From positions 13,687 to 77,686 of the forward strand of contig JAKAOM010000002.1 of assembly GCA_021812145.1 (NCBI GenBank): a DNA stretch of 64,000 nt, written 5' to 3'. The notes below the pieces were generated by a model. The model did no database searches, was not told the origin of the DNA, and was given only the letters and a program-made list of their open reading frames with translations. This DNA comes from Candidatus Micrarchaeota archaeon (GTDB taxonomy: Archaea; Micrarchaeota; Micrarchaeia; Norongarragalinales; UBA8480). Below, one piece after another: positions 3,001 to 34,490 of the stretch; the stretch's first letter is position 1, and every line of letters begins with the position of its first letter. The translations under genes were made by a program, and so were the position numbers.

Positions 3001-5095
3001 CATTGCTCACACTGTTTGTTTGAACGAAAACGTCAAACTCCTGACTGCCTGTGAACTGGCTAACGTTGTATGAAACCCACTTAAGCTCGTTGCTGGCGTT
3101 GTTAGAATTCAAGCTGCTTCCGCTTGAAGGGTTTCCTGAAAAACTAGAAATGTACGCCGGGTCGGTTGAAATATCCTCAGAACCACCAACTTGAACGTAA
3201 ACGCTAGCAGTTGAAAAATTAAGAGTAGGCGCGTTTAATATGAACCTGGCCTCGTAGTTCGTGTTTGGAGACAGCGAATTTACCTTCACCCCGTTTTCAT
3301 ACAATCCTAAGAATTCAAGCTGAAGCGATTGGGAGAAAGAGTTTGGAATTAATACAAATGAATTGTTAGAACTCACCCCTGCCTGAAGTGTAACGCTAGA
3401 GGTTAAAGACTGATAGTTGGGGGAGGTGAGAGTTATTGATTGAACTCCTGAAGGCAGGCTTAGAATGCAGGAGCCTATTGTAGTGTAGCATGAAACTCCT
3501 GAACTTGAAGCGTTGAAAGTGCTTATTGGATTTCCAGTCACGAAGTCTGAAGCAGTTATATTAACCGCCGTGGGCGCTGCGGTAAGATTTATCGCAACGC
3601 TCGTTAAGTTTGAAGAGTTTGTTACGACTGCTGAAGCGTTTCCAGCCAACCCTTGACCGCTGGCTTGAACGTTCAAGCTTCCAAGAGGAATATACTGGAA
3701 GATGGTTGAACCGTCAGGCCCTGTGTTCTGGCTTGGAATTCCCAAAGGTTGATTCAAATTGTTTAAAAGCTCAACGCTAACCCCTGCAACCGGATTCCCT
3801 CCTTGAGTTGTCTGAACTTGAAGCCCTCCGGAGTTAAATGAGTTTGCCGACTGCAGTATGATAGTTCCAACTCCGGCTGAAGTTACTGTTTTCATTGCAG
3901 GAAGATATCCCTGTGCAAACGCGGTGACCTGGCAGGTAGTGCCTATAGGAACGTTGAAACTGTCCACCCCGTTTGAAGGGGTGTCCTGCGCGAATAAAGC
4001 GCCATTGCAATAAACGTTTACAAGCGGGCTTTGAATATTGTTTCCATTCACGTCAACCACGTTAACCCCAATATTTTGCGAGTTTTGAGTTGACAAAGGA
4101 TCCAAATATATTGTGGAGGTTACCCCGTTTTCAGTTATATTATATGTTGATGAGGTTCTTGACAGGAAACCTGGAGCGCTAGCGCTTAGGTAAACCGAAT
4201 CGCCAACGTTGACTTGAATCGCATTAGTCGACCCGTCAGCGCTTCCATTTGTGGATAGCGTTCCCAAAATTTTGTTGGTTGAAGCCTCAACCACGTTAAC
4301 CACAGCGTTTGTTATAGGAGAGTTTGGCGGAACGTCTTGTTCAACAATAGCACTTACTGGCCCAGTTATGGCCTGGCCGAATTGGAACATTCTAATTGTA
4401 AAGGTAGAAGAATCCTGAGCTCTTTCAACATAGCTTTGATACCCCCTCCAGCCTGGAGCGCTGGCAGTTAGAGAATAATTAACACCAGGAGTAAGCTGAA
4501 AAGTATAGGAGGGATTTGCAACCTCACTGTCCACTTGAGTTCCGTTGACGAGCAGCGTGACATTAGCCTGCGCAGGCCCTTGAACTAAAACAGGCAGGCT
4601 CACTGTTGAAAGAGTCAGAGGAGTTAGAGGCACAACCACTCCAGTTCCATTCGAAATAAAAGTCGTTTGCGTCGAGCCAGGCGAGTAGCTTGAACTGCTG
4701 ACGCTTACCGTAACATTCGCGCCTATAGGAATTCCGCTAAAGCTTGCCACGCCGTTTTGATCCGTAACGCTGCTGAATGATAAGAAAGTTCCGTTAACTG
4801 AAGTAAATGATATTGACGCCAAAGACCCGTTTACAGCCTGATTAGAAGGACCTTGCACTGTTACTGTAAAAACACCAACTTGCGGCGCAGTAAAATTTAC
4901 TATAAGTAGAAAAATTCCAACAATTATGGCAAAGATAAGTACCACAAAAAAAGGCAATGGAGGAATTCCCCGCGATTCTAGAAAATCGCTCGCCTTTCTT
5001 ATAGGTAGCCCTTTCTCGTCGCTCCAGTCAAGAAAATCTTCCCATTTTTCTCCGGCACTTGTGAAGAAATTATCTATGAATTCAGGCAACGGCAA
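1..5095 (-). CDS. Giant cell-surface protein (5' end at 5095; 3' end beyond left window edge; at least ~1698 codons)
   Basis: Hand translation gives an uninterrupted minus-strand frame from TTG 5095-5093 (first codon after in-frame TAA 5098-5096) to position 2. It is absent from the ORF track because it has no stop in the window. The N-terminus LPLPEFIDNFFTSAGEKWEDF...GIPPLPFFVVLIFAIIVGIFLLIV has one TM helix. More than 1600 aa of N/S/T/G/V-rich beta-sandwich-like repeats follow (e.g. VTVQGPSNQAVNGSLASISFTSVNG..DQNGVASFSGIPIGANVTVSV). There are many N-x-S/T sequons and very few charged residues. Confidence 0.8.
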   Translation of the reverse strand, partial: MPLPEFIDNFFTSAGEKWEDFLDWSDEKGLPIRKASDFLESRGIPPLPFFVVLIFAIIVGIFLLIVNFTAPQVGVFTVTVQGPSNQAVNGSLASISFTSVNGTFLSFSSVTDQNGVASFSGIPIGANVTVSVSSSSYSPGSTQTTFISNGTGVVVPLTPLTLSTVSLPVLVQGPAQANVTLLVNGTQVDSEVANPSYTFQLTPGVNYSLTASAPGWRGYQSYVERAQDSSTFTIRMFQFGQAITGPVSAIVEQDVPPNSPITNAVVNVVEASTNKILGTLSTNGSADGSTNAIQVNVGDSVYLSASAPGFLSRTSSTYNITENGVTSTIYLDPLSTQNSQNIGVNVVDVNGNNIQSPLVNVYCNGALFAQDTPSNGVDSFNVPIGTTCQVTAFAQGYLPAMKTVTSAGVGTIILQSANSFNSGGLQVQTTQGGNPVAGVSVELLNNLNQPLGIPSQNTGPDGSTIFQYIPLGSLNVQASGQGLAGNASAVVTNSSNLTSVAINLTAAPTAVNITASDFVTGNPISTFNASSSGVSCYTTIGSCILSLPSGVQSITLTSPNYQSLTSSVTLQAGVSSNNSFVLIPNSFSQSLQLEFLGLYENGVKVNSLSPNTNYEARFILNAPTLNFSTASVYVQVGGSEDISTDPAYISSFSGNPSSGSSLNSNNASNELKWVSYNVSQFTGSQEFDVFVQTNSVSNASLNLQWSDSYTFGNNTFNTPSSGFNSQSIPITFQGNCVDGMCVQFYFSGVLGSGLNGFQALTPETFKLNYNILSNSSTPVLIQTNSSGLQLVQAVQNGQTVPAQDNTLSFNSNGSGFVLIKALSPVNNGLISVSAGSYSTQLGVRVIASNYNLQVSYAPTNLKALDQSTINFTVTDSNGLAVSNADVELTGVLDNPTQAVYANGVYTATITPNAPGLLYFKITSPGYKTYSSSINVGVDNIIAVTPTTLSLSVNSLNFSTVDFQTQNLLNQNTFLTFQTVAFSPQYTVVSTTSSSATVQPLGSFTNSLQAAVSSAVQLAALQTKTLSESVKGYVNVIARTGGYTQTIQLPFTVQTSYTQTSIQQAVSLSASALTFQVILPMQPSSSQNEIITNNAPFPVLVNSQTSSGDFQVSPLSATIPAGGSQTFSVTAYLPWEYQQLQCVVSQAPETGTVNFYASAEGVSSQALPVTLSSTIQSYGTCQIAGGLVVKLPFAAVFMLPPGSTSGQQSQQDGSVPVLTPQGLIIFQFGSGIQQNFVSVPAGTGVELPPNLVSTSSTETDVTYPMPVLISVGSAKTITNGDGSVSLTTDSGTLILPSGSQSESNQNLNYNQFFGSSYTPFATQAGVTSTQLTNTYSNYYNPNLVNQFGFSSTVQPFNYVQNGYLVPAGSTIKFTSSSNLLTSLTFDYSAYGKVMVGGVSENSGSAVPTNGGFDITFPKCAQLKVFNAQINPGLKLSDTLPAAKEVILENAEQVSGGYQVQGKIQIKECTDVDESLKYFTTILPSPLYFNFPAITRTGAGTYDFGTCSTLNVTSGSIPIMQATKVIFKSNYQEQQDKSGNWIVSADSSAVVSILPCGVGGVVQVSPPNSVGVSFNNKPVSPINQVNFTLASDQRSQSQELTLTNYADSTLHPAGQSDSNGLATYIQSIDGTLTNFFTIDSLQAKNPPLFPDLSPTNPNQLKLTATDVVDGICLPDKTYSGAITIALQGSNQIVKQIYVTV

Positions 5096-5287
5096 TTAAA
5101 ATCACTAGGTTATCTACAAGTTTAAAAGTTTAAAATCCTTTTCTTTAATCTAAATTTTTGCATTAATTGTCTGCAAGCAATTCCACCGGTAGGTAATCAT
5201 TATTTATAGTTAAAAGTAGACTAGGCTGGCAACGCTGGCTACTTGGGGGGCTAATGTTTATAAATTAAAAAAAAACAAAGATTTTCC

Positions 5288-6865
5288 ATGCTTGAATGGA
5301 ATGAAATTTTAGAGTTAAGGGCTGAAAGCGCGGGAATAAGACTAAACAACGGCTTCAGGCAAGCCTTGAATTTGATGGAAAAAACAAACAAAAATGTTTT
5401 CATCACAGGAAAAGCGGGCACTGGAAAATCCACTCTTCTTCAACTATTCGCCGGAATAACCAGTAAGAAAATAGTAGTTCTTGCTCCAACAGGTGTGGCT
5501 GCTTTAAACGTAAAAGGGCAGACTATACACTCTTTTTTCGGATTCAAACCCGACGTAACCCTTGATTCAATAGGAAGGGTTTCAAAAGAAAAAAGGGAAT
5601 TATACAAAAATCTTGACATGATCGTAATCGACGAGGTTTCGATGGTAAGGGCAGACCTGCTGGACTGCGTAGATAAATTCATGAAAATCAACGGTAAGAA
5701 AAGAACAATTCCATTCGGAGGAACCCAGATGATTTTAATAGGAGATCTTTATCAGCTTCCTCCAGTGGTTAGTAAAGGAGAGGGAGGCATGTTCAGGGAG
5801 TATTACAAAAGCGAGTATTTTTTCGACGCCGAAGCTTTCAGAAAATTCAAAGCCGAATTTATAGAGCTTGAAGAGAACTACCGCCAGGAAGACGAAAGAT
5901 TTTTGAAAATTTTAAACGACATAAGAGGCAACACTGTTTCAGACGAGGAGTTGAAAGAGCTTAACAAAAGGGTAGATCCGGATTTCAAACCTCCTTCTGA
6001 AGATGGCTATGTTACGCTGGTTCCCACAAACGCGCTGGCTGAAAAAATAAACAACGATAATTTAAACTCGCTTCCAGGCAACGAGCAGGTATTCAACGCT
6101 ATTTTAAATGGGGATTTCAAAAAAAACGAATTGCCTGCAAAAGAAAAAATATTCTTGAAAAAAGGGGTTCAAGTCATGCTTTTGAACAACGACGAGGCGA
6201 AAAGATGGGTCAATGGCAGCGTGGGAGTGGTTAATTCAATCAACACTGAAAGAGATTCTGTTACGATTAACCTTCTTGAAGGAAGCGAAGTTGAAGTTGA
6301 ACCCCACACGTGGAAGCTTTTCAAATTTTCATACGACTCCAAAGCAAAAAAACTTGTGAGCAGCGTTTCAGGCCGGTTCACCCAATATCCAATAGCTTTG
6401 GCCTGGGCTTTGACAATTCACAAAAGCCAGGGAAAAACATTTGACAAGGTCGTCATAGACGTGGGCAACGGAATGTTCGCCAACGGACAGCTTTACGTAG
6501 CCTTGAGCAGATGCAGAAGCTTGAAGGGGATTATATTGAAGAAAGGAATTGAAAAAAACCACGTTTTTTCCGACTGGAGAGTTGTCAAGTTTCTCACAGA
6601 TTACCAGTATGGAAAATCTAACGAGAAGATGAGCGTGGAAGATAAAATTGCACTGATTAAAAAAGCGATAGAAAAAAGAAGAGAGATTGAAATAGTTTAT
6701 CTAAGACCAAACAATGAAAAATCAAAGAGAATTATATCCCCAATAAAAGTCGGAATGCTCGAATACCTTGGAAAAGAATTCGTGGGGGTTAACGCATTCG
6801 ACTCGAAAAGAATGAAAAGCGTGAACTTCAGGGTCGACAGAATTCTTGAAATGAATACAGTATAG
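5288..6865 (+). CDS. Pif1/RecD-like SF1B DNA helicase with C-terminal WYL-like domain
   Basis: Helicase motifs: Walker A GKAGTGKST, Ia VLAPTGVAALN, II IVIDEVSM, PFGGTQ...LIGDLYQLPPV (Pif1-type), V LTIHKSQGKTFD, VI YVALSRCRS. The last ~60 aa (nt 6680-6862), REIEIVYLRPNNEKSKRIISP..YLG..FVGVNAFDSKRMKSVNFRVDRI, fit the WYL-domain pattern. Confidence 0.8.
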   Translation: MLEWNEILELRAESAGIRLNNGFRQALNLMEKTNKNVFITGKAGTGKSTLLQLFAGITSKKIVVLAPTGVAALNVKGQTIHSFFGFKPDVTLDSIGRVSKEKRELYKNLDMIVIDEVSMVRADLLDCVDKFMKINGKKRTIPFGGTQMILIGDLYQLPPVVSKGEGGMFREYYKSEYFFDAEAFRKFKAEFIELEENYRQEDERFLKILNDIRGNTVSDEELKELNKRVDPDFKPPSEDGYVTLVPTNALAEKINNDNLNSLPGNEQVFNAILNGDFKKNELPAKEKIFLKKGVQVMLLNNDEAKRWVNGSVGVVNSINTERDSVTINLLEGSEVEVEPHTWKLFKFSYDSKAKKLVSSVSGRFTQYPIALAWALTIHKSQGKTFDKVVIDVGNGMFANGQLYVALSRCRSLKGIILKKGIEKNHVFSDWRVVKFLTDYQYGKSNEKMSVEDKIALIKKAIEKRREIEIVYLRPNNEKSKRIISPIKVGMLEYLGKEFVGVNAFDSKRMKSVNFRVDRILEMNTV

Positions 6866-6937
6866 TGGACTCGGCGGGATTTGAACCCGCAGCCTCATCG
6901 TTGCGAACGATGCGATCTACCGTTGATCTACGAGCCC
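6866..6937 (-). tRNA. tRNA-Ala (anticodon CGC), intron-less, no encoded CCA
   Basis: Minus strand reads GGGCTCG TA GATC AACGGTA GATC G CATCG TTCGCAA CGATG AGGCT GCGGG TTCAAAT CCCGC CGAGTCC A. All four stems pair and the G3:U70 alanine identity pair is present. The 3' end abuts the helicase stop codon. Confidence 0.9.
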
Positions 6938-7301: not shown

Positions 7302-7934
7302 TTACAAATTCGCGTATTCTTCAAGTTCATCCTCAGTTATACTGCATCCAGCATATTTAAGGGCTTGAAGCGCCGCGTTGAAAACTTTCTTCGGGTTCTT
7401 GAATTCTTGGAGATAACCCTTTCTAAATGCAAAGTAAAGCAGTTCAGTAGATCTAAGGATTTGAATCTTTAAAAAATCTGGCTTGTGGAACACCATCTTC
7501 TCACCGTACTCCTTCTCCATTTCTACAAGAAGCAGTTCAGGATTTTCGAAAAGAAGGCGAGTGGTTTTCTCGTCCACAGCAAACGCATCAAAACTGAATT
7601 TTTTGTAAACGGATATGCACGATACCTCTCCTTCCTGTACAATAGTTAGGTTTCTCCCTTCTATTTCAAAAGTCGAGTTTAGCTTTTCAGCAAGACTTCG
7701 GGTTTCCTGCCAGTCCTCCTCCACTTCTTTTATCACCCGGTCTTCGAAGCATTTTTCAAGCCTAAGCGCACCGTACTCGTATCTTTTTATTCTTTCAGGA
7801 TTTTCTATTATCTCCTTTTTAACGCTTTTAGTTATGTAGAACTCGACGCTGTTTTCAGCAAGAAGATAAAGCACTTCCAAATTGCAGGTTTCCGCAAGAG
7901 ATATGAGCGTGCTTGAATCGCATATAATCTTCAT
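7302..7934 (-). CDS. PIN-like (DUF3368-type) nuclease-domain protein with C-terminal extension; putative toxin
   Basis: The N-terminus MKIICDSSTLISLAETCNLEVLYLL...ITKSVKKEI matches the PIN/DUF3368 pattern (hhhDsSpLIsLa..g.L.lL). A later acidic motif is FAVDEKTTRLL. It lies 6 nt downstream of its partner ORF. Confidence 0.55.
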   Translation of the reverse strand: MKIICDSSTLISLAETCNLEVLYLLAENSVEFYITKSVKKEIIENPERIKRYEYGALRLEKCFEDRVIKEVEEDWQETRSLAEKLNSTFEIEGRNLTIVQEGEVSCISVYKKFSFDAFAVDEKTTRLLFENPELLLVEMEKEYGEKMVFHKPDFLKIQILRSTELLYFAFRKGYLQEFKNPKKVFNAALQALKYAGCSITEDELEEYANL

Positions 7935-7940
7935 TTTAAA

Positions 7941-8471
7941 TCACTGGAAAAATTTTTCAAGGTTGGCAAGCCTTTCCTTGACGCTTGAACGGTATTTTTG
8001 ATGTATCTTTGTTTCACCAATGTAGGATTGGAGTTCTATTCTTTCCGCTCCAGTCAGCTGAACCGCCACCCCTATCGAAGCGCCATGGGCGTACATCTGA
8101 GTCGCGGTTTTTATCCTTGCTTTCTGCACAGCGTCCTGCATGAATCTTCCGAAATTTCTGCTCAGTTTTTCTATTTCAGCTATAACAAAATTGAGATTTT
8201 CATCAGAGGGCTGACGCAGTTTATCTTTTAGTTCAACGTACGCTTCCTTCCAAACATCTGTTTTTGCTATTCTGGGCTTTTCCATTATCTTCGCAAGCGC
8301 ATAAGCAATTATACTTGTTTTCGCTTCTAGCGAGTCGCTTTTTACCAACGCTTCAGCAGCTGATTTTTCTGCAATCTCCTTCATCTGCAACGTATCGTTT
8401 TTTTCAAAAGCTTTCAGAAGCGCTTCTATCATAATTAGTGTTTGAACGACAAGGTTTAAGAGGTTAACCAA
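7941..8471 (-). CDS. Hypothetical helical protein, C-terminal UPF0175-like HTH; putative antitoxin partner of the PIN-like gene
   Basis: The segment TATQMYAHGASIGVAVQLTGAERIELQSYIG resembles UPF0175 antitoxins, which typically pair with DUF3368 PIN toxins. The real start may be the internal Met (MIEALLKAF, nt 8432), because the track start is only 14 nt from the divergent GGDEF start. Confidence 0.4.
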   Translation of the reverse strand: MVNLLNLVVQTLIMIEALLKAFEKNDTLQMKEIAEKSAAEALVKSDSLEAKTSIIAYALAKIMEKPRIAKTDVWKEAYVELKDKLRQPSDENLNFVIAEIEKLSRNFGRFMQDAVQKARIKTATQMYAHGASIGVAVQLTGAERIELQSYIGETKIHQKYRSSVKERLANLEKFFQ

Positions 8472-8485
8472 TTCAAATTTTATTC

Positions 8486-9244
8486 ATGAGCGATCACTAC
8501 AAGATTCCTGAAGATAGAAAGATAAGAGAAAAAAGACTGGATTTATTTGATTTACATGAAAACGAGATTAAAAAACTTAAGGAGAGCGGCAAAATAAATT
8601 TTAACGATTACGATAAACTTATGCGAACCATTACAGATGCAAGGGAAGAATATGAAAAACTACATTACGAACATCTGTTCGGAAGAAAATACCCGCAACT
8701 TTACACCCCGACTTTTCTGAAGCAAAATCTTGACCGGCACTTGAATGAAATAGCAGTTCAAAAAGGATGGAGAAAAGGGCAGTTGAACATGTTTAAAAAT
8801 GACGAGTCACACGCAGTTATAATGATTGATTTAGATAATTTCAAGAAAGTTAACGATACTTTTGGGCATGTTATTGGAGATATTGTTCTAAACAAAGTAA
8901 ACAGCATAGTAAAAGATGTTGCCGACAAACACAAGGGAATGGCGGCAAAATATGGCGGAGAGGAATTTCAATTATGGTTTCCAAATTCCGACAGAGAAAA
9001 AACAAGAAAGATTTCAGAGGAATTGATTGAAAAAATAAGAAAGGAAATGAAAGAACCACCATCTAAAGAAATATCCAAAAAATGGAAAGGACTTACCGCC
9101 AGCGCTGGTTTTGCAACACATGATATGCTCGCTAATAGAAATGAAAGGCTTACTGCCGAAGGTCTAACACAATTGGCGGATATAGGCCTGCTAAAGGCGA
9201 AAGCAAAAGGCAAAAATAGGGTAATATCGGCTGAAGACAGTTAA
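8486..9244 (+). CDS. GGDEF-domain diguanylate cyclase-like protein with N-terminal coiled-coil region
   Basis: Classic GGDEF core: AVIMIDLDNFKKVNDTFGHVIGDIVLNKV...AAKYGGEEFQLWF (GGEEF at nt 8954-8968)...SAGFA...ADIGLLKAKAKGKNRV. No RxxD I-site lies 5 residues upstream of GGEEF. Confidence 0.8.
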   Translation: MSDHYKIPEDRKIREKRLDLFDLHENEIKKLKESGKINFNDYDKLMRTITDAREEYEKLHYEHLFGRKYPQLYTPTFLKQNLDRHLNEIAVQKGWRKGQLNMFKNDESHAVIMIDLDNFKKVNDTFGHVIGDIVLNKVNSIVKDVADKHKGMAAKYGGEEFQLWFPNSDREKTRKISEELIEKIRKEMKEPPSKEISKKWKGLTASAGFATHDMLANRNERLTAEGLTQLADIGLLKAKAKGKNRVISAEDS

Positions 9245-9318: not shown

Positions 9319-9394
9319 TTTTAAATAAGTATCATGATATTATCATGACAATACAGTGACGCTGTCATGACTTCATTTTATGAATATCATGATT
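9319..9394 (+). promoter_or_regulatory. TATA-like box plus four phased TCATGA palindromes (putative operator array) upstream of the wHTH gene
   Basis: TTTTAAATAAG lies at 9319-9329. TCATGA occurs at 9332-9337, 9343-9348, 9365-9370 and 9387-9392, with spacings of 11, 22 and 22 nt. The inner pair is embedded in the inverted repeat TCATGACA-N12-TGTCATGA. Confidence 0.45.
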
Positions 9395-9429
9395 GTCGAG
9401 CAATAAAAGGTTTTTGGTGAGTCTGGAAG

Positions 9430-9807
9430 TTGAATGAATTCGAGGAAATGAAGGAGGCATTCGAAAAAATAAAACAATCCACAAACGACCCAGTAGCTAT
9501 TGGAAACCTGCTGTACATAATGGCAGAGGAAAGAGCATCCACAAACCTTTTGTTGAAGGAGATAAATGCAAAGCTTGACAAAATAATTTCAGGGAGTGAA
9601 AAACCCAAGAATGAAAATGTTTTGTCAGAAATAGACAACGAGATCGTCAGCTTCATAGGAAGCGGGAGAGTTTGCGCGGAGAATGTGCAGAAGAAGTTCA
9701 AGTACAAAGGCTCCAACGCGGCGTCCTCAAGGCTGAACAGGCTTTGCGATGCAGGGATTTTGAGAAAATTTCAAGTAGGAAGGAAAGTGTTTTTTGAGAA
9801 AATTTAG
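9430..9807 (+). CDS. Winged-helix (MarR/TrmB-like) DNA-binding protein
   Basis: The C-terminal half EIDNEIVSFIGSGRVCAENVQKKFKYKGSNAASSRLNRLCDAGILRKFQVGRKVFF looks like a wHTH. The start is TTG 9430 or ATG 9448. Confidence 0.55.
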   Translation: MNEFEEMKEAFEKIKQSTNDPVAIGNLLYIMAEERASTNLLLKEINAKLDKIISGSEKPKNENVLSEIDNEIVSFIGSGRVCAENVQKKFKYKGSNAASSRLNRLCDAGILRKFQVGRKVFFEKI

Positions 9808-10515: not shown

Positions 10516-13500
10516 TTGAAAAAAGTGCATAAATACACTGCTTTTGCAATTTTGGGATTTCTAGTTCTTACTGTCTACGGACTAGGCTTCAGCAACAATC
10601 AAGGATTCAACATTCAAAACAACCCTGTAACCGTAAACACTCAAGCTAGCCAGAACACCACTGCGCCAAACTTCAACATAAACAACCCAGCGCTTGCTCA
10701 GCAAAATTCAAATACTCAAACCACCACTACAACTCAAAACAATATAAATACACAAAACAGTTTAAACCCTCAAAGTTTTTCAATAAACAATCCTTCAATC
10801 TCAACCACAATTGTCGGCAGTTCTTTGTCAACTGATTCTTTTGCCACCGGAACTTGCGTTGCAAACCAACCTCAACTACCCGCCATTGTAAGAAATACAT
10901 TTAACCAACTCTGCAGTCTTGGAGGAAGCACAAACCCTCTTAGGGATTTCTGCAACGCTTTGAATTCAATGAACCAACCATTAACCCCTCCTTCTCAATG
11001 CGCTTTGATAGGCGCCAAGGTTTTGAACCAATCCTGCACCACTACTGTTAATCTTCCATACGCTGTTTGCAGAAGCTATTGGAATTCAGGATGGCAAGCA
11101 ACCTGGTATGGCGCTTGCCCTTCATGCCCTTCAGGCTATGTAAGGGATTCCTGCGATTCAGCCTGGTGGGATTTCGCACTTAGCTCAAAAACCTACTGCC
11201 ACAAAGACACCACCGTAGTAGGCCAATGCCCTTCAGGAGAAAGCGTGGTTTCAACATCTACTCAACCAACCACTTTGAACGGCAACGAGGCTGCATGCGA
11301 CACAACAATGATTATTTCAAACGTCAACGTAATTGTAAACGCTTTGTCTGGAACCGCTTCGGTCAGCTGGACTGACAGCGTTTACGGAAACGCGACTGTT
11401 TCCTATTCTGGCCCTGTTTCAGGAAGCCAATCCACCCCTTTAATTCAAGGATACAACCACAACATTGTCTTGACCGGATTAACCAATGGAAATTACAACC
11501 TCAACATTCAATCTTGCAACAGCGTGAGCGGCTGCGGAAGTTACAACGGAGCGTTCAACATTCAAAACATTATTTCATTTCTTCAAATCCAATCCCCAAC
11601 AAACACTTCCTACTATTTCAACACTCCAATATTCATGAATTTCACAGTAAATGGAAGCGCTCCAAACTACAACGCATCCTACTCGCTGACCGGATACGCT
11701 CCTGTTCAATTCAACGCAGTTAACGGCTTCAATTCATTGCAACTACCCAACTTGAATTTGGGAAATTATGTATTGAACCTAACGGTTTCCGCAGGAATTC
11801 AAACGTCAAGTCAAAGCGTTTCATTCTCAATAGTAAACGCAACCGCGAACGTTTCTTTGACTGCAAACTCATGGAATGTTGTTTACGGAAACACTTCAAA
11901 CGTTTCATGCTCTTCAAACGTAGCCAACGCTTCGCTTCAGCTTTACGACAACGGAGTTGCTGTTTCAAACCCGGACGTGGAAATTCTCGGAGTCGGAACG
12001 TACAATTACACCTGCGAGTTAAACGCTTACGGCTACAACACTGCAAACGCTTCAAATACTCTTACAATATCGCAGGCCCAAACAACTACAAGCGTTTTGC
12101 TAAACAACTCAAATTCTAACTTAACGATTATATATGGAGATTCAATCATAGCCAACTATTCAGCAAACGCGGGAACAACCAGTTTCTACCTAAACGGGTC
12201 AATCATAAGCAACAACTACAACACTTCAGGATTAAGCGCAGGATACTACAACTTCACCGCGATTACCGACGGAGGAGTTAACTATTCAAACAGCAGCGAT
12301 TCGAAGTTTCTTACTATAAATCCCGCTTCTTCGCAAACAACCGTTTTTCTAAACGGCTCAAACTCCAACCTTACAATTATTTACGGGAATAGCGTTATCG
12401 CTAACTACACTTCATCTTCAACAGCAACCCTCTACCTAAACGGGTCAATCATAAGCAACAACTACAACACTTCAGGATTAAGCGCAGGATACTACAACTT
12501 CACTGCAATTGCGAACAGCGGGCTTAACAGTTCAGGAAGCTCTGATTCAGAATACTTGACCATTCAGCAAGCCCCTTCAACCATCAACCTAACTCTTAAC
12601 GGGGTTGACGGAGACATAAACGTTCTTCAAAACTCAATAGTCAACATTACAGTCTACACCAACTTCAACGACCTGGTTACAACAACTATTTCAAACCTTT
12701 CAGGAATGGTTTACAGCGCTAATTCCACTTCATTCAACTTTACCGCAAGCTCAGGCTCATACTACACTGTAACTTCAAGCTTTGCAGGCGATGTTAACTA
12801 CACTCCTTCTTCCGCAACTCACACAATCGGATTGACTGGATTGAACTTCTCAAACCTTGTCGAGTATTCAACTCCTTCAGCACAACAATATTCAGGCGTC
12901 GGAGAAAGCTTCAACTGCAACTACACCGACGGCTACGGAAACGAAATTCAGAACGCAAGCGTTTACGTAGAAATTGGAAACGCTTCCTATCCAACAGCAT
13001 TCAACAATAATTATTTTTACAACGCAAACCTTCCGGCAGGCAACTATTCATGGTACTGCAACGCTACAAGCGCTAATTACCAGCCTCAGGTTGGAAGCGT
13101 TCAGAACTTCACAGTTTTGCCGATATCTCCAAACTATTCATATTCATACATAAACGCTTCAAACACTACTGTGGGAATTCCTTCAAACGTGGTTATTTTC
13201 ATCGGAGGTTTTAACGGAACCGGGCTTTCCAACGTCAGCATTTCTCTATACTCAAGCAGGAATGACACTATAGCTCCTTTGAATGAAATGACCGACGCCA
13301 ACGGTTTTGCAAACTTCACAGTCAATTCAACGATTGCAGGAGTTTCAAACCTTACAGCAGTGGTTTCTGGATTCAACCTTTCAACACAAGCGTACTTCAA
13401 CCCTGAAAGCGTTGCAAGCATAATAGTTTCTCCTTCAAACGCTTCGATTTCAATGAACTCAACTCAGCAGTTCAACGCCAGCGCTTTTGATTCCTACAAC

Positions 13501-16269
13501 AATTCTGTTCCAGTCAATTTCACGTGGAGCGTTTCAAACTCGACCGTTGGTTCTGTCGACGTTAACGGTCTTTTCACTTCAAGCTCTGTTGGAACCACAG
13601 ACGTGACCGCTTCAAACGGAAGCGTCAACGGAAGCGCTTCAGTCATTGTAATTCCAGGAAACATTTCATCAATAATCGTTTCATGCCCCAACTCGACAAT
13701 CCAATCAGGTGATTCAGTGCAATGCACTGCCAGCGCCTTCGACTCGTTCAATGATTCTCTAAACGCTAGTTTTGTTTGGAGCGAGGTCAACTACACTGGA
13801 ACTGGAATAGTTGACACGAACGGATTGTTCACAGGGTTTAAAGCAGGAATTGTCGAGGTTGACGCTTCAAGCGGCAACGTGACAGGATCCTTCAACGTTA
13901 CAATAACTCCGGGAGTTCCAAGTGTTTTGATTGTTTCAGCATCACCTCAGACTCTTACAGTGGGAAATCCTTCAAGCATTTCAGCCATTATTTCAGACGC
14001 TTATGGAAACGTCATATACAATGGAAGCGTTGATTTCAACACAAGCTTAGGAGTGTTCGCTTCTTCAAACACGTCAACAGCTGTTGACTCTATAATTAGC
14101 GGAAGCGCGAACGATTCCCTGACTTCAAACACGTCAGGAACCGCTAACGTCACAGCTCAGTACGGAAGCCTTTCAAACTCAACGCTTGTTACAGTCACTT
14201 CTGGAAGCCTTTCATCAATAATCGTTTCATGCCCCAACTCGACAATCCAATCAGGAGTTGAAATGCAGTGCAGCGCGAGCGGTTTTGACTCTTGGAACAA
14301 TCCTGTCAACGCTAATTTCACATGGAGCGTTTCGAACTTCACTGGAACAGGATTTGTAAACGCATCAGGAGCGTTCACAGGAGAAAACGAAGGTATTGTT
14401 GAAGTGGATGCTTCAAGCGACAACGTTTCAGGCTCGTTCAATGTAACTGTAACTCCAGGAAGCCTTTCAAGCATCATTCTTTCAGCATCGCCGTCAAACT
14501 TGCCTGTCAATAACACTTCTTTAATTTCAATAAGCCTTTACGACTTATATGGAAACCCAGTCAACGCTACCGTTGTTTTAAGCGTGAACGACTCTTCAAA
14601 CACCACCTACAACCTTCAGGTTAATGGAAGCGGTTCAATAAACATAACTGAAACAATCGCAGGCTTTTACAACATCAACGCAAACTCAACAGGAGTTTCA
14701 AACTCGACAACCATAACATTCACGGCGTTGAACGCTTCGCAAACAAACTCTACCATAACCCCGCCTCAAACACTTCCAGTAAATTCCACTGCAAACGTTT
14801 CAATTTCATTGAAAGACGCTTACGGAAACCCTGTCCAAGATTTGGTTGAATTCTTCGTGAATGGAAACCCCGTAAATTCAACTATAGCAAACGCGAGCGG
14901 AGACGCTTCATTCAGCGTTTATTCAAACCAGAGTGGATTGTTCAACATAACCGCCGAGGACGTAAACAACTCGTTCAACCTTTCAACTTTCGTTCAATTC
15001 AACGCGCTAAACGCTTCAACAATTTTGATAAACGCCGCAAGCCCTGTGACCGCCGGCTCAATAAACCAGGTTAACTTCACTGTTTCAGACGCTTACGGAA
15101 ACCCAGTCAACGACATTCTTAACGTTTCAATAGGAAATTCAACACAGCAGGCTCAGATAATTAACGGCTTCGGCCAAATTAACTTTTCTGAAAACGCTTC
15201 AGGAATTTACGGAATAACCGCGGTTTCAACAACCAACGGAGCTGCAAACTCCACTTCAATAAATGTTATTGCAGGCAGCCCCACAATATTGAACATTTCA
15301 GCAAACCCTATGCAAGTAAACACCGGCGGGAATTCAACAATAACAATCAGCTTAACCGACGCGTTCGGAAACCCTGTTTCAAACGCTACGATTGACTTTA
15401 ATTCAACCTCGCTTCTTTCTCAGAATTCAAGCGTTACAGACTCTAATGGAACAGCAACAGTGAATCTAACAGCAAACGCCGGATCAAACGCAATCCTTGC
15501 ATTCTACTCCTTGAATCCTTCGGTCAACAACACAATTACAATTACCGGAATCGCTCCCAACTACAACGTTTCAATACTTGTTGAAGACGGAAACTACAAT
15601 CCTATTCCAAACGCAAACGTTTCAGTAACCAGCTACGGAGTTTACAACACAAACGCCAACGGAACGGTTATAGTTCAAATGACCGAAGGCAACTACCTGT
15701 TCACAGCATACGACGCGGGATATTCAAGCGCACAGCAAAATCTGACAATCAACGCCAACACTCAAATTATATTCGTTCTCCAAAAACTTGGAGTTTTGAA
15801 CGGAACAGTTAACTCGGCTAACGGGAGCGCGATCAACGCGTTGATAACCTTTGGTAACTATTCCACCACCGCAGTAAACGGAGTTTTCTCTGTTTCAAAC
15901 GTAGTTCCAGGCGTTTACAACATAACCAGCTCTGCTTCTGGATTTGCAAACAGCGTTTTGTTCAACATTCCAGTGTACTCGGGAAACACCACCGACGTTT
16001 CAATAACCATGAATCCACTTGGAGGAGTCAACGGAACAGTGGTTGACGCCTTGAACGGAAACCCCATAGCAAACGCTAACGTGACAATCACCCAAAACGG
16101 AGTTCTAGCAGCGTTTGGATTGACAAACGCCACCGGTTCATACCACGACGCTGGAATTCCGGCAGGCTATTACAACGTTACCGTAACCGCCACAGGATAC
16201 GGAAGCCTGACAAGAGACAATGTCATCGTGTCCCAAGGAAGCGTTTCCACAATAAACTTTGCAATGTGA
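10516..16269 (+). CDS. Giant secreted surface protein (1917 aa): Cys-rich head, Ig-like (Big_2 / invasin-like) repeats, C-terminal carboxypeptidase-regulatory-like domains
   Basis: N-terminal signal-like MKKVHKYTAFAILGFLVLTVYG. A region of roughly 15 Cys spans aa ~110-270. Big_2-like units are present (VSPSNASISMNSTQQFNASAFDSYNNSVPVNFTWSVSN..VDVNGLFT), as are Big_1-like units (SAIISDAYGNVIYNGSVDFNTSLG). CarboxypepD_reg-like units lie at the C-terminus (GVLNGTVNSANGSAINALITF..VPGVYNITSSASGF). N-x-S/T sequons are dense. Confidence 0.85.
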   Translation: MKKVHKYTAFAILGFLVLTVYGLGFSNNQGFNIQNNPVTVNTQASQNTTAPNFNINNPALAQQNSNTQTTTTTQNNINTQNSLNPQSFSINNPSISTTIVGSSLSTDSFATGTCVANQPQLPAIVRNTFNQLCSLGGSTNPLRDFCNALNSMNQPLTPPSQCALIGAKVLNQSCTTTVNLPYAVCRSYWNSGWQATWYGACPSCPSGYVRDSCDSAWWDFALSSKTYCHKDTTVVGQCPSGESVVSTSTQPTTLNGNEAACDTTMIISNVNVIVNALSGTASVSWTDSVYGNATVSYSGPVSGSQSTPLIQGYNHNIVLTGLTNGNYNLNIQSCNSVSGCGSYNGAFNIQNIISFLQIQSPTNTSYYFNTPIFMNFTVNGSAPNYNASYSLTGYAPVQFNAVNGFNSLQLPNLNLGNYVLNLTVSAGIQTSSQSVSFSIVNATANVSLTANSWNVVYGNTSNVSCSSNVANASLQLYDNGVAVSNPDVEILGVGTYNYTCELNAYGYNTANASNTLTISQAQTTTSVLLNNSNSNLTIIYGDSIIANYSANAGTTSFYLNGSIISNNYNTSGLSAGYYNFTAITDGGVNYSNSSDSKFLTINPASSQTTVFLNGSNSNLTIIYGNSVIANYTSSSTATLYLNGSIISNNYNTSGLSAGYYNFTAIANSGLNSSGSSDSEYLTIQQAPSTINLTLNGVDGDINVLQNSIVNITVYTNFNDLVTTTISNLSGMVYSANSTSFNFTASSGSYYTVTSSFAGDVNYTPSSATHTIGLTGLNFSNLVEYSTPSAQQYSGVGESFNCNYTDGYGNEIQNASVYVEIGNASYPTAFNNNYFYNANLPAGNYSWYCNATSANYQPQVGSVQNFTVLPISPNYSYSYINASNTTVGIPSNVVIFIGGFNGTGLSNVSISLYSSRNDTIAPLNEMTDANGFANFTVNSTIAGVSNLTAVVSGFNLSTQAYFNPESVASIIVSPSNASISMNSTQQFNASAFDSYNNSVPVNFTWSVSNSTVGSVDVNGLFTSSSVGTTDVTASNGSVNGSASVIVIPGNISSIIVSCPNSTIQSGDSVQCTASAFDSFNDSLNASFVWSEVNYTGTGIVDTNGLFTGFKAGIVEVDASSGNVTGSFNVTITPGVPSVLIVSASPQTLTVGNPSSISAIISDAYGNVIYNGSVDFNTSLGVFASSNTSTAVDSIISGSANDSLTSNTSGTANVTAQYGSLSNSTLVTVTSGSLSSIIVSCPNSTIQSGVEMQCSASGFDSWNNPVNANFTWSVSNFTGTGFVNASGAFTGENEGIVEVDASSDNVSGSFNVTVTPGSLSSIILSASPSNLPVNNTSLISISLYDLYGNPVNATVVLSVNDSSNTTYNLQVNGSGSINITETIAGFYNINANSTGVSNSTTITFTALNASQTNSTITPPQTLPVNSTANVSISLKDAYGNPVQDLVEFFVNGNPVNSTIANASGDASFSVYSNQSGLFNITAEDVNNSFNLSTFVQFNALNASTILINAASPVTAGSINQVNFTVSDAYGNPVNDILNVSIGNSTQQAQIINGFGQINFSENASGIYGITAVSTTNGAANSTSINVIAGSPTILNISANPMQVNTGGNSTITISLTDAFGNPVSNATIDFNSTSLLSQNSSVTDSNGTATVNLTANAGSNAILAFYSLNPSVNNTITITGIAPNYNVSILVEDGNYNPIPNANVSVTSYGVYNTNANGTVIVQMTEGNYLFTAYDAGYSSAQQNLTINANTQIIFVLQKLGVLNGTVNSANGSAINALITFGNYSTTAVNGVFSVSNVVPGVYNITSSASGFANSVLFNIPVYSGNTTDVSITMNPLGGVNGTVVDALNGNPIANANVTITQNGVLAAFGLTNATGSYHDAGIPAGYYNVTVTATGYGSLTRDNVIVSQGSVSTINFAM
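12082..12579 (+). repeat. Tandem ~82-85-codon intragenic repeat with a 72-nt identical core
   Basis: Unit 1 starts at 12082 and unit 2 at 12337. Nt 12186-12257 are identical to 12432-12503 (ctacctaaacgggtcaatcataagcaacaactacaacacttcaggattaagcgcaggatactacaacttcac), while the flanks have diverged. Confidence 0.85.
13664..14255 (+). repeat. Dispersed intragenic repeat (46-nt identical cores 546 nt apart) in Big_2-like units
   Basis: tttcatcaataatcgtttcatgccccaactcgacaatccaatcagg occurs at 13664-13709 and again at 14210-14255. Both copies encode SSIIVSCPNSTIQSG. Confidence 0.8.
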
Positions 16270-34245: not shown

Positions 34246-34473
34246 ATGGAAGTCAGCAATGAAAATAAAACAGGAATACCAAAAAAGTACGTGTACGTTT
34301 TGGCAGTGGTTGTCGTAGCGCTTGGATTGTTCCTAACGCTTAACGCCTACTCATTCTTTTGGAGGTCAACACCACAAAATTCAGAATATTCTACAGCTCA
34401 ATACGCTCAAAGCAGCAATTCAACCATAGCTACTGGAGGGGTTATTCCATCGCAGGTTGGCGGTTGCAATTAA
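34246..34473 (+). CDS. Small single-pass membrane protein ending ...SQVGGCN
   Basis: KK-flanked TM YVYVLAVVVVALGLFLTLNAYSFFW with the C-terminal tail predicted outside. The tail is homologous to that of 33035..33841. Confidence 0.5.
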   Translation: MEVSNENKTGIPKKYVYVLAVVVVALGLFLTLNAYSFFWRSTPQNSEYSTAQYAQSSNSTIATGGVIPSQVGGCN

Positions 34474-34490
34474 TATTTCAGGTGGCCCAT

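What the first reader, a model, noticed from the sequence alone, without database searches (positions are those of the whole stretch)
8486..9244. Canonical GGDEF (GGEEF) diguanylate-cyclase domain encoded on an archaeal chromosome
The 252-aa ORF has every hallmark of an active GGDEF domain: IDLDNFKKVNDTFGH, GDIVL, YGGEEF, SAG, and AKAKGKNRV. It lies on the same contig as an archaeal rRNA operon, TFB, MCM and a thermosome. By established surveys, GGDEF/EAL c-di-GMP signalling is a bacterial hallmark and is essentially missing from cultivated archaea. This is therefore either a horizontal acquisition with an unknown output pathway in an archaeon, or a GGDEF-fold enzyme making a different product. 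No EAL, HD-GYP or PilZ domain is visible in this window. The N-terminal ~95 aa are coiled-coil-like with no obvious sensor domain.
Basis: partly seen in the sequence, partly recalled or inferred. Interest (0 to 1): 0.6.

Follow-up and report, generated by a model that had tools for sequence, protein, structure and literature searches.

The report
Native diguanylate cyclase in Micrarchaeota archaeon
A tiny uncultured DPANN archaeon (Micrarchaeota) carries an intact, native gene for the enzyme that bacteria use to make the messenger c-di-GMP; such archaeal enzymes were published in 2026 and are common in this phylum, so this is one more example, with receptor and breakdown enzyme still unknown.

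Summary
Window 8486-9244 (+) encodes a 252-aa protein whose C-terminal 160 residues are a textbook GGDEF domain: Pfam PF00990 at 89 bits and a confident AlphaFold model that matches only solved diguanylate cyclases. All catalytic and guanine-specifying residues are present. The RxxD product-inhibition site is absent. The N-terminus is a lineage-specific pair of helices with no sensor domain.

The gene is not an assembly artefact or a recent import. Its codon usage is typical of the genome. The same locus occurs in at least six independently assembled contigs. Orthologues at 55-63% identity keep the same gene order in four other lineages.

The genome is a 0.76-Mb Micrarchaeota MAG with a second GGDEF gene that does have an I-site. 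GGDEF genes occur in 171 of 401 genomes sampled across the phylum. EAL, PilZ and MshEN domains were found in none of 61 relatives. HD-GYP occurs in about 10-13% of the phylum's genomes but not in this genus.

Most likely it is a constitutively dimeric, transcriptionally controlled c-di-GMP synthase with an unknown output. A 2026 paper (PMC13725321) already reports GGDEF cyclases in archaeal isolates and DPANN MAGs. I therefore class this as a new member of a known kind, of modest interest.

The parts
8486..9244 (+). Complete gene for a 252-aa two-helix + GGDEF protein, a predicted diguanylate cyclase
   Evidence: ORF. PF00990 at 89.1 bits. TIGR00254 at 96 bits. Best solved-structure match by sequence is a WspR GGDEF domain, E=1.5e-16.
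8455..8461 (+). TATA-like box TTTAAGA about 28 nt upstream of the ATG. It is a putative archaeal promoter for a leaderless or short-leader mRNA (inferred).
   Evidence: Sequence. An A/T-rich TTTAA element sits at the same place in the orthologous loci L018 and L085.
8510..8683 (+). N-terminal helical pair, aa 9-33 and 39-66. It is lineage-specific and is the presumed dimerisation stalk.
   Evidence: AlphaFold2 helices with pLDDT 65-81. No Pfam hit. Found only in the four orthologue clusters.
8684..8746 (+). Divergent linker GRKYPQLYTPTFL that replaces the canonical DxLTGLxNRR wide-turn motif. GRKYPQLYTP is identical in all four orthologues.
   Evidence: Alignment A1. pLDDT below 50 for residues 66-91. 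The Pfam match starts only at profile position 28.
8747..9229 (+). GGDEF catalytic domain, aa 88-248
   Evidence: pLDDT 90-98. Foldseek top hits are all GGDEF cyclase domains (GcbC, DgcB, WspR, DosC, PleD) at E about 1e-12.
8828..8881 (+). Substrate and metal-binding segment D115-L-D117-NFK120-KVN123-DTFGH128-VIGD132. These equal PleD D327, D329, K332, N335, H340 and D344.
   Evidence: Residues checked. Invariant columns in the 120-sequence alignment. PleD numbering is from established knowledge.
8927..8938 (+). Position of the inhibitory I-site, which reads K148-H-K-G151 instead of RxxD, so the I-site is absent
   Evidence: Alignment to WspR, where RSSD aligns with KHKG. Orthologues read KHNG, KHEG and KHDG.
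8954..8968 (+). Active-site motif G157-G-E-E-F161, preceded by K155-Y156
7941..8432 (-). Context only: divergently transcribed 163-aa genus-specific protein with a faint UPF0175-like C-terminus. The longest ORF extends to a TTG at 8471.
   Evidence: Only six protein clusters are known. UPF0175 at E=0.054. Adjacent to the GGDEF gene in all five lineages.
7302..7934 (-). Context only: 210-aa DUF3368-type PIN protein, the probable toxin partner of the 163-aa protein
   Evidence: PF11848 DUF3368 is recorded for the orthologues. Weak PADLOC PDC-S70 match.
9430..9807 (+). Context only: 125-aa winged-helix protein downstream. It is a near-universal single-copy gene of the order and is not GGDEF-specific.
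   Evidence: Present in 57 of 61 relatives whether or not they have GGDEF. Single copy in the own genome.

Best explanation
The gene encodes a genuine, chromosomally native diguanylate cyclase of a Micrarchaeota (DPANN) archaeon.

Two N-terminal helices probably hold two subunits together, so that their GGDEF domains, each binding one GTP-Mg2+, face each other and condense 2 GTP into c-di-GMP. There is no sensor domain and no RxxD inhibitory site. Activity would therefore be set mainly by how much protein is made, from an archaeal-type promoter, and not by a ligand or by product feedback.

The messenger's targets are unknown, because none of the standard bacterial receptors or phosphodiesterases is encoded in this genus. 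Candidates are the I-site of the genome's second GGDEF protein and unknown archaeal receptors. A possible output is control of the giant adhesin-like surface proteins that flank the locus.

- Shown here: domain identity, residue conservation, fold, native status and phyletic spread.
- Inferred: dimerisation, product, constitutive activity and output.
For: **Domain and fold.**
- PF00990 at 89 bits and TIGR00254 at 96 bits.
- The best sequence matches among solved structures are WspR, DgcB, PleD and DgcR.
- The AlphaFold2 GGDEF core has pLDDT 90-98.
- All 50 top Foldseek PDB hits are GGDEF cyclases. They include the coiled-coil + GGDEF forms 6ttr and 3i5c.

**Catalytic residues.** D115, D117, K120, N123, H128, D132, G157-G-E-E-F161 and K239 are present. 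They fall in invariant or near-invariant columns of the 120-sequence alignment and are conserved in the three orthologue clusters.

**Native status.**
- Codon usage is at the 94th percentile of the genome's own ORFs.
- The locus is present in at least six contigs from three separate assemblies, one of them 224.8 kb long.
- Gene order is conserved in four further lineages at 55-63% identity.
- No att-like repeat of the nearby tRNA-Ala was found.

**Lineage-wide feature.**
- GGDEF in 27 of 61 genomes of the order and 171 of 401 of the phylum.
- A second GGDEF gene in the same genome carries an RKTD I-site.
- HD-GYP genomes are enriched for GGDEF: 27 of 40 against 144 of 361, p=0.001.

**Published precedent.** PMC13725321 reports indications of cyclase activity for some archaeal and DPANN GGDEF proteins in Salmonella and E. 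coli reporter assays.
Against: - No enzymatic, expression or metabolite data exist for this protein.
- c-di-GMP has not been detected in any archaeon, according to PMC13725321.
- No EAL, HD-GYP, PilZ or MshEN is encoded in this genome or its 94%-complete congener. A complete pathway therefore cannot be drawn.
- The first ~27 positions of the GGDEF profile, the DxLTGLxNRR wide turn, are replaced by a divergent, poorly modelled linker.
- Two basic residues are Lys instead of Arg: K155 and K243, equivalent to PleD R366 and R446.
- Heptad hydrophobicity of the N-terminal helices is only moderate. The model shows a helical pair, not one long stalk, so dimerisation is an inference.
- In the 2026 paper none of the seven MAG proteins described in the section read behaved consistently across all three assays.
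Confidence: 0.7

Rival explanations
1. The GGDEF domain is intact in sequence but is not an active cyclase in the cell. It would act as a scaffold or nucleotide-binding (GTP or c-di-GMP) regulatory protein.
For: - The wide-turn segment is divergent and there are Arg-to-Lys changes at two phosphate- or substrate-contacting positions.
- PMC13725321 reports catalysis-independent phenotypes for several archaeal GGDEF proteins.
- There is no partner phosphodiesterase or receptor.
Against: - Every residue known to be needed for catalysis is kept across orthologues only 55-63% identical. That is unexpected for a degenerate domain.
- It has no I-site with which to bind c-di-GMP.
Confidence: 0.12
2. 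It is the signal generator of a conflict or defence module. The nucleotide it makes would control the neighbouring PIN nuclease / UPF0175-like pair, or other island genes such as the Pif1-WYL helicase or, in relatives, the AbiE pairs. The logic would resemble CBASS or type III CRISPR signalling.
For: - The PIN-p163 pair is divergently adjacent to the GGDEF gene in all five lineages.
- The interval between the two giant genes also holds a helicase-WYL, and in relatives AbiEii/AbiEi pairs.
Against: - The five lineages are one genus-level clade, so the linkage may be plain inherited synteny.
- The GGDEF protein has no PADLOC hit.
- p163 is a genus-specific ORFan with no recognisable nucleotide-sensor domain such as CARF, SAVED or STING.
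- Other Micrarchaeota GGDEF genes have unrelated neighbours, such as RadA, FtsZ and a metallo-beta-lactamase-fold protein.
Confidence: 0.08
3. It is a GGDEF-fold enzyme that makes a different nucleotide product, for example 3'3'-cGAMP or c-di-AMP as Hypr GGDEFs do, or a linear product.
For: - No c-di-GMP-specific partner is encoded.
- The linker is unusual and strictly conserved.
Against: - Asp132 occupies the position where Hypr enzymes have Ser, and Asn123 is present. Both specify guanine (determinant as cited in PMC13725321).
- The closest structures are all c-di-GMP synthases.
Confidence: 0.07
4. It is bacterial contamination, or a chimeric contig that brought a bacterial gene into an archaeal bin.
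For: - GGDEF is overwhelmingly bacterial, and MAG bins can be contaminated. Galperin et al. raised this caution in 2018.
Against: - The gene lies 17 kb from an archaeal rRNA operon on a 99-kb contig.
- The identical locus was assembled at least six times, once in a 224.8-kb contig.
- Codon usage is native.
- Orthologous loci in four other lineages have the same archaeal neighbours.
- Estimated contamination of the assembly is 0.26%.
Confidence: 0.02

Closest known systems
Archaeal / DPANN GGDEF proteins of Sidorov et al. 2026 (Mol Microbiol, PMC13725321), e.g. the short GGDEF-only proteins KHO53289.1 and KHO53915.1
   Same: - A small protein that is little more than a GGDEF domain, on an archaeal DPANN contig.
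- An intact GG(D/E)EF motif and signature residues.
- Asp, not Ser, at the cGAMP-determining position.
- Receptor and phosphodiesterase unknown.
   Different: - This protein comes from Micrarchaeota.
- It has its own lineage-specific two-helix N-terminus and lacks the I-site.
- I could not compare it directly with the paper's sequences, so I cannot tell whether this lineage was in their set.
- A relative in the same order (L089) carries the unusual RIFHPSGDEF motif that the paper reports for MBI503694.1.
WspR of Pseudomonas aeruginosa (PDB 3bre, 3i5b, 3i5c) and coiled-coil DgcB of Caulobacter crescentus (PDB 6ttr)
   Same: - Best sequence match (WspR, E=1.5e-16, about 29% identity over the domain) and best fold matches.
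- GGEEF motif.
- A helical stalk N-terminal to the GGDEF domain, which in these enzymes mediates the dimerisation needed for catalysis.
   Different: - No receiver or other input domain.
- The I-site RxxD is replaced by KHKG.
- The helix-to-domain linker (DxLTGLxNRR) is replaced by GRKYPQLYTPTFL.
- The host is archaeal, with no EAL, HD-GYP or PilZ partners.
PleD of Caulobacter vibrioides (PDB 1w25, 2v0n), the reference diguanylate cyclase
   Same: Equivalent residues: D327/D115, K332/K120, N335/N123, D344/D132, E370/E159, E371/E160 and K442/K239.
   Different: - R366 is K155 and R446 is K243.
- The R359xxD362 I-site is absent.
- There are no REC domains.
Hypr GGDEF enzymes (GacA/GSU1658, PDB 6d9m), which make cGAMP
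   Same: Same fold. 6d9m is among the fold hits.
   Different: The specificity-switch Ser is Asp here, so membership is not supported.
Cas10 Palm / mCpol minimal CRISPR polymerase domains
   Same: Distantly related Palm-type nucleotide cyclase fold with a GGDD- or GGDEF-like loop (established knowledge).
   Different: - No Cas10 or mCpol family was listed among the Pfam matches at E<=0.01.
- None of the 50 listed fold hits is described as Cas10.

Membership tests
GGDEF domain family (Pfam PF00990 / TIGR00254) | Profile match above the curated cut-off | tested here: met
   89.1 bits against a cut-off of 23.8. 96.1 bits against 37.4. The match covers profile positions 28-161 of 161.
GGDEF domain family (Pfam PF00990 / TIGR00254) | GGDEF fold (ferredoxin-like Palm core with the GG[DE]EF beta-hairpin) | tested here: met
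   AlphaFold2 core pLDDT 90-98. Foldseek against the PDB: 5euh, 6tts, 3i5b, 3ign and 4zvf at E about 1e-12, TM (target) 0.7-0.8.
Catalytically competent diguanylate cyclase | GG[D/E]EF active-site motif | tested here: met
   G157-G-E-E-F161, identical in all orthologues.
Catalytically competent diguanylate cyclase | Metal-binding acidic residues (PleD D327, E370) | tested here: met
   D115 and E159 are present, in invariant columns of the 120-sequence alignment.
Catalytically competent diguanylate cyclase | Guanine-specifying residues (PleD N335, D344) | tested here: met
   N123 and D132.
Catalytically competent diguanylate cyclase | Phosphate-binding basic residues (PleD K442, R446; R366 before the motif) | tested here: inconclusive
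   K239 is conserved. K243 and K155 replace Arg, a conservative change found in all four orthologues. The effect on activity is unknown.
Catalytically competent diguanylate cyclase | N-terminal wide-turn motif DxLTGLxNRR linking the stalk helix to the domain | tested here: not met
   It is replaced by HLFGRKYPQLYTPTFL. The Pfam match begins at profile position 28 and pLDDT is below 50 for residues 66-91. This is a frequent signature, not a strict requirement, so it lowers confidence in activity without excluding membership.
Catalytically competent diguanylate cyclase | Homodimerisation bringing two GTP-loaded domains together | not testable with these tools
   Only a monomer model could be made. 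Two N-terminal helices are predicted.
Catalytically competent diguanylate cyclase | Synthesis of c-di-GMP from GTP | not testable with these tools
   Needs an enzyme assay or a reporter assay.
Product-inhibited diguanylate cyclases (I-site class) | RxxD motif five residues upstream of GG[DE]EF | tested here: not met
   KHKG at residues 148-151; KH[NED]G in the orthologues. The genome's second GGDEF protein does have RKTD.
Complete c-di-GMP signalling system | A c-di-GMP phosphodiesterase (EAL or HD-GYP) | tested here: not met
   EAL: 0 hits in the own genome and 0 of 61 relatives. HD-GYP (PF13487): 0 in the own genome and genus, 15 of 61 in the order and 52 of 401 in the phylum. The own assembly is only 78% complete, but the 94%-complete congener G002 also lacks both.
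Complete c-di-GMP signalling system | A known receptor (PilZ, MshEN, riboswitch, I-site protein) | tested here: inconclusive
   PilZ 0 of 61. MshEN 0 of 61. The c-di-GMP-I riboswitch gave 0 of 61, but the control genomes were also silent, so that search is uninformative. The class II riboswitch was not searched. One I-site-bearing GGDEF protein is present.
Hypr GGDEF (cGAMP synthases) | Ser in place of the guanine-specifying Asp (PleD D344 position) | tested here: not met
   Asp132.
Cas10 Palm / mCpol | A better profile or fold match to Cas10/mCpol than to GGDEF | tested here: not met
   Only GGDEF and GGDEF_GdpP are listed by Pfam at E<=0.01. The fold hits are all GGDEF cyclases.

The most novel reading that the evidence does not exclude
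Micrarchaeota as a phylum, with GGDEF genes in about 40% of species-level genomes, run a working c-di-GMP network. Its receptors, and in lineages like this one its degrading enzyme too, are not any of the bacterial types (no EAL, PilZ or MshEN, and HD-GYP in only a minority). In this genus a sensor-less, feedback-free cyclase sits between two giant adhesin-like genes. It would set the messenger level that governs surface attachment to the host cell through a wholly new kind of effector.
Probability: 0.3. Interest if true: 0.7.

Novelty: new member of a known kind. Interest (0 to 1): 0.3.

Why it matters
Whether archaea use c-di-GMP at all was long an open question, and a 2026 paper has begun to answer it. 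That paper explicitly leaves open how widespread the enzymes are, where they came from, what degrades the messenger and what senses it.

This locus adds little on its own, being one more intact GGDEF gene in a DPANN archaeon. The survey made while checking it is more useful:
- GGDEF genes occur in about 43% of the Micrarchaeota genomes sampled (80 of 155 genera).
- HD-GYP occurs in about 10-13% and is statistically associated with GGDEF.
- EAL, PilZ and MshEN are absent from all 61 relatives examined.

A genome of roughly 800 genes with two cyclases and no known receptor is a compact place to look for new c-di-GMP effectors.

Tried and rejected
1. **Downstream wHTH as a dedicated receptor or regulator.** A homologue also lies near a different GGDEF gene in G012. 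However, the protein is a near-universal single-copy gene in 57 of 61 relatives regardless of GGDEF. Rejected.
2. **Recurrent neighbours of other Micrarchaeota GGDEF genes.** They turned out to be RadA, FtsZ and a metallo-beta-lactamase-fold protein, which are housekeeping synteny and not partners.
3. **Integrated mobile element at tRNA-Ala.** No direct repeat of the tRNA end and no integrase in 5.0-10.6 kb. GC and codon usage are normal. Not supported, although the interval is variable between relatives, which carry AbiE pairs or a 465-aa gene inserted there.
4. **Donor lineage by phylogeny.** The 171-column domain tree is unresolved at depth. The target clade sits on a long stem (0.97) with no starred sister, and constrained monophyly with the other Micrarchaeota GGDEFs is not rejected. 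No donor can be named.
5. **N-terminal domain relatives.** None beyond the four orthologue clusters, and no Pfam hit.
6. **Defence-system membership of the GGDEF protein.** No PADLOC hit.
7. **c-di-GMP-I riboswitch search.** Uninformative, because the controls did not ring.
Full report
**What is there.**

Window 8486-9244 (+) is a 252-aa ORF.
- Residues 104-245 match Pfam GGDEF (PF00990) at E=3.6e-25, 89.1 bits against a cut-off of 23.8. The only other family listed is the related GGDEF_GdpP, and it is below its threshold.
- NCBIfam TIGR00254 gives 96 bits.
- PADLOC gives nothing.

By sequence, the closest solved structures are the GGDEF domains of WspR, a Marinobacter cyclase, DgcB, DgcR and PleD.

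An AlphaFold2 model was built on a 120-sequence alignment and has mean pLDDT 79.5:
- two N-terminal helices, residues 9-33 and 39-66;
- a poorly defined linker, residues 66-91, with pLDDT below 50;
- a GGDEF core with pLDDT 90-98.

Foldseek against the PDB returns only diguanylate-cyclase GGDEF domains in the top 50. These include the coiled-coil forms of DgcB (6ttr) and GCN4-WspR (3i5c). No Cas10 appears.

**Residues (PleD numbering from established knowledge).**

| This protein | PleD equivalent | Note |
|---|---|---|
| D115 | D327 | metal binding |
| K120 | K332 | |
| N123 | N335 | specifies guanine |
| D132 | D344 | specifies guanine; Ser in cGAMP-making Hypr enzymes |
| G157-G-E-E-F161 | active-site motif | E159 and E160 = E370 and E371 |
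| K239 | K442 | |
| K155 | R366 | Arg changed to Lys |
| K243 | R446 | Arg changed to Lys |
| K148-H-K-G151 | R359xxD362 | inhibitory I-site absent, also in the orthologues |

The usual DxLTGLxNRR wide turn is replaced by HLFGRKYPQLYTPTFL. The GRKYPQLYTP stretch is identical in all four orthologues. The N-terminal 100 residues have no Pfam hit and occur only in the four orthologue clusters among 5.8 billion proteins.

**Is it really archaeal and native?**

The window is G000:C6:13687-77686 of a 757-kb, 26-contig assembly that is 78% complete with 0.26% contamination.

Archaeal markers in the window:
- an archaeal rRNA operon;
- TFB;
- a thermosome.

The nearest named relative of the protein is from a 'Candidatus Micrarchaeota archaeon' MAG, at 63% identity.

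Evidence that the gene belongs where it is:
- Gene GC (0.362) and codon usage (94th percentile of the genome's own ORFs) are native. The 5-10 kb interval has the genome's average GC. It is the flanking giant genes that are richer.
- The identical protein is encoded on at least six contigs from three separate ENA assemblies, one of them 224.8 kb, with the same neighbours.
- Orthologues of 55-63% identity keep this order: giant surface protein (-), Pif1-like helicase, DUF3368 PIN protein, 163/164-aa protein, then divergently GGDEF, wHTH and giant surface protein (+). This holds in four further lineages.
- No att-like repeat of the adjacent tRNA-Ala was found.
- A TTTAAGA box 28 nt upstream of the ATG, conserved in position in the orthologous loci, fits an archaeal promoter with a leaderless or short-leader transcript (inference).

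**How common is this?**

The genome has a second GGDEF gene (C8; L001 1498-2205). It encodes 235 aa with a Cys-rich N-terminus, an RKTD I-site and RFGGDEF, and it lies next to ftsZ.

Order-level survey (61 genomes):

| Domain | Genomes with a hit |
|---|---|
| GGDEF | 27 of 61 (15 of 22 high-quality) |
| HD-GYP (PF13487) | 15 of 61, none in the own genus |
| EAL | 0 of 61 |
| PilZ | 0 of 61 |
| MshEN | 0 of 61 |

The c-di-GMP-I riboswitch search found nothing, but its controls were silent too, so it says nothing.

Phylum-level survey (401 genomes):
- GGDEF in 171 of 401, of which 152 are over the cut-off. That is 84 of 188 high-quality genomes and 80 of 155 genera.
- HD-GYP in 52 of 401, of which 40 are over the cut-off.
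- HD-GYP-positive genomes are GGDEF-positive more often than the rest: 27 of 40 against 144 of 361. Fisher odds ratio 3.1, p=0.0012, not corrected for phylogeny.

Architectures in the order include GAF-GGDEF, a conserved ~575-aa GGDEF family that looks like PAS-GAF-GGDEF, membrane-anchored GGDEF and Cys-rich GGDEF. These architectures were read by eye from the sequences and were not confirmed by Pfam. In G035 a GGDEF gene and an HD-GYP gene lie 1.4 kb apart.

**Origin.**

A maximum-likelihood tree was built from 140 GGDEF domains: 23 from Micrarchaeota (the target clade of 4 plus 19 from the order), one from Woesearchaeota, and 116 from the best database hits, which are mostly bacterial.
- The four orthologues form a 100%-supported clade on a long stem.
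- That clade has no supported sister.
- Deep nodes are unresolved.

Forcing all the Micrarchaeota domains into one clade gave a better likelihood than the quick free search and is not rejected (p-AU 0.68-0.78). Long-branch attraction could contribute to that result. A single old origin in the phylum is therefore compatible with the data but not shown, and no donor can be named.

**Neighbours.**
- The 163-aa protein is a genus-specific ORFan, with only six clusters known. It has a faint UPF0175-like C-terminus. With the DUF3368 PIN protein it looks like a toxin-antitoxin pair.
- The wHTH protein is a core single-copy gene of the order, present in 57 of 61 genomes, and is unrelated to GGDEF presence.
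- None of these neighbours can be tied functionally to the cyclase. The linkage is confined to one genus-level clade.

**Mechanism proposed.**
- Shown: a native, conserved, structurally canonical GGDEF domain with a complete catalytic set.
- Inferred: the N-terminal helices dimerise the protein. The enzyme makes c-di-GMP from two GTP. With no sensor and no I-site, it is regulated by its expression level. Output goes through receptors of unknown type, possibly the I-site of the second GGDEF protein. One plausible target is the giant Big_1/Big_2/CarboxypepD_reg-domain surface proteins on either side, by analogy with c-di-GMP control of adhesins in bacteria.
- Confidence that it is an active c-di-GMP synthase: about 0.7.

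**Comparison with what is known.**
- Galperin et al. 2018 (PMC5847659) knew one archaeal GGDEF, in Methanocella, and flagged a REC-GGDEF in Ca. Micrarchaeum as possibly contamination.
- Sidorov et al. 2026 (PMC13725321) identified GGDEF proteins in three archaeal isolates and 20 MAG proteins, mainly from DPANN. These include short GGDEF-only proteins. Several showed indications of cyclase activity in Salmonella and E. coli assays.
- The same paper stated that phyletic spread, origin, phosphodiesterases and receptors remain open.
- Earlier notes of this scan record 37 similar findings in at least 34 genomes.

This locus is therefore a new member of a known kind. What the present work adds is a quantitative picture for one phylum and a clean example of a cyclase-only genome.

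**Verdict.** The novelty class is new member of a known kind, and interest is 0.3.

Noticed in passing
L001 1498-2205 (-) = G000:C8, around 14192-14590: Second GGDEF gene of the same genome. It encodes 235 aa with a Cys-rich, zinc-finger-like N-terminus, a canonical I-site (RKTD five residues before RFGGDEF), and sits next to ftsZ. The same arrangement occurs in the congener (L006).
   Followed up: partly
window 7302-7934 (-) and 7941-8432 (-): A DUF3368-type PIN protein (210 aa) is followed upstream by a genus-specific 163-aa protein with a faint UPF0175-like C-terminus. This is probably a toxin-antitoxin pair. It is always divergent from the GGDEF gene in this genus-level clade.
   Followed up: partly
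window 5288-6865 (+) and 6865-6937 (-): A Pif1/RecD-like SF1B helicase with a C-terminal WYL domain ends exactly where a tRNA-Ala(CGC) gene begins on the other strand. The best PADLOC matches are PDC-S68 and type IV RecD-like helicases.
   Followed up: no
window 9330-9395: Four TCATGA palindromes follow a TTTTAAATAAG box upstream of the wHTH gene at 9430-9807. That wHTH is a near-universal single-copy gene of the order (57 of 61 genomes), so this may be an autoregulated core transcription factor.
   Followed up: partly
window 2-5095 (-), 10516-16269 (+), 16279-17958 (+): Giant Asn/Ser/Thr-rich surface proteins flank the island. Orthologues carry Big_1, Big_2 and CarboxypepD_reg domains. The flanking arrangement is conserved in related lineages.
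   Followed up: no
L010 523-2253, L013 999-2726, L009 1207-2970, L088 3438-4817, L008 493-2172: A conserved ~460-590-aa GGDEF protein family, PAS-GAF-GGDEF-like by eye and not checked with Pfam. Its motifs read IGGDEF, VGGDEF or YGGDEF. It is present in several families of the order, including the window's own family but not its genus.
   Followed up: no
G035:C29:3074-3562 (-) and 4977-5459 (+) (L003): A GAF-GGDEF gene and an HD-GYP (PF13487) gene lie 1.4 kb apart in a relative of the same order. This is a candidate complete synthesis/degradation module in Micrarchaeota.
   Followed up: no
L089 3760-4818 (+) (G013): A GGDEF protein with the aberrant motif RIFHPSGDEF, the same unusual motif that PMC13725321 reports for MBI503694.1.
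   Followed up: no
window 50644-52500 (-): A full-length 1-deoxy-D-xylulose-5-phosphate synthase homologue (PF13292, E=4.5e-103) in an archaeal genome. Archaea normally use the mevalonate route (from general knowledge), so its role here is unclear.
   Followed up: no
window 34359-35981 (+): A 540-aa protein with a C-terminal cupredoxin/COX2-like domain, followed by a 4Fe-4S (Fer4_5) protein. This points to possible respiratory or redox capacity in a reduced DPANN genome.
   Followed up: no
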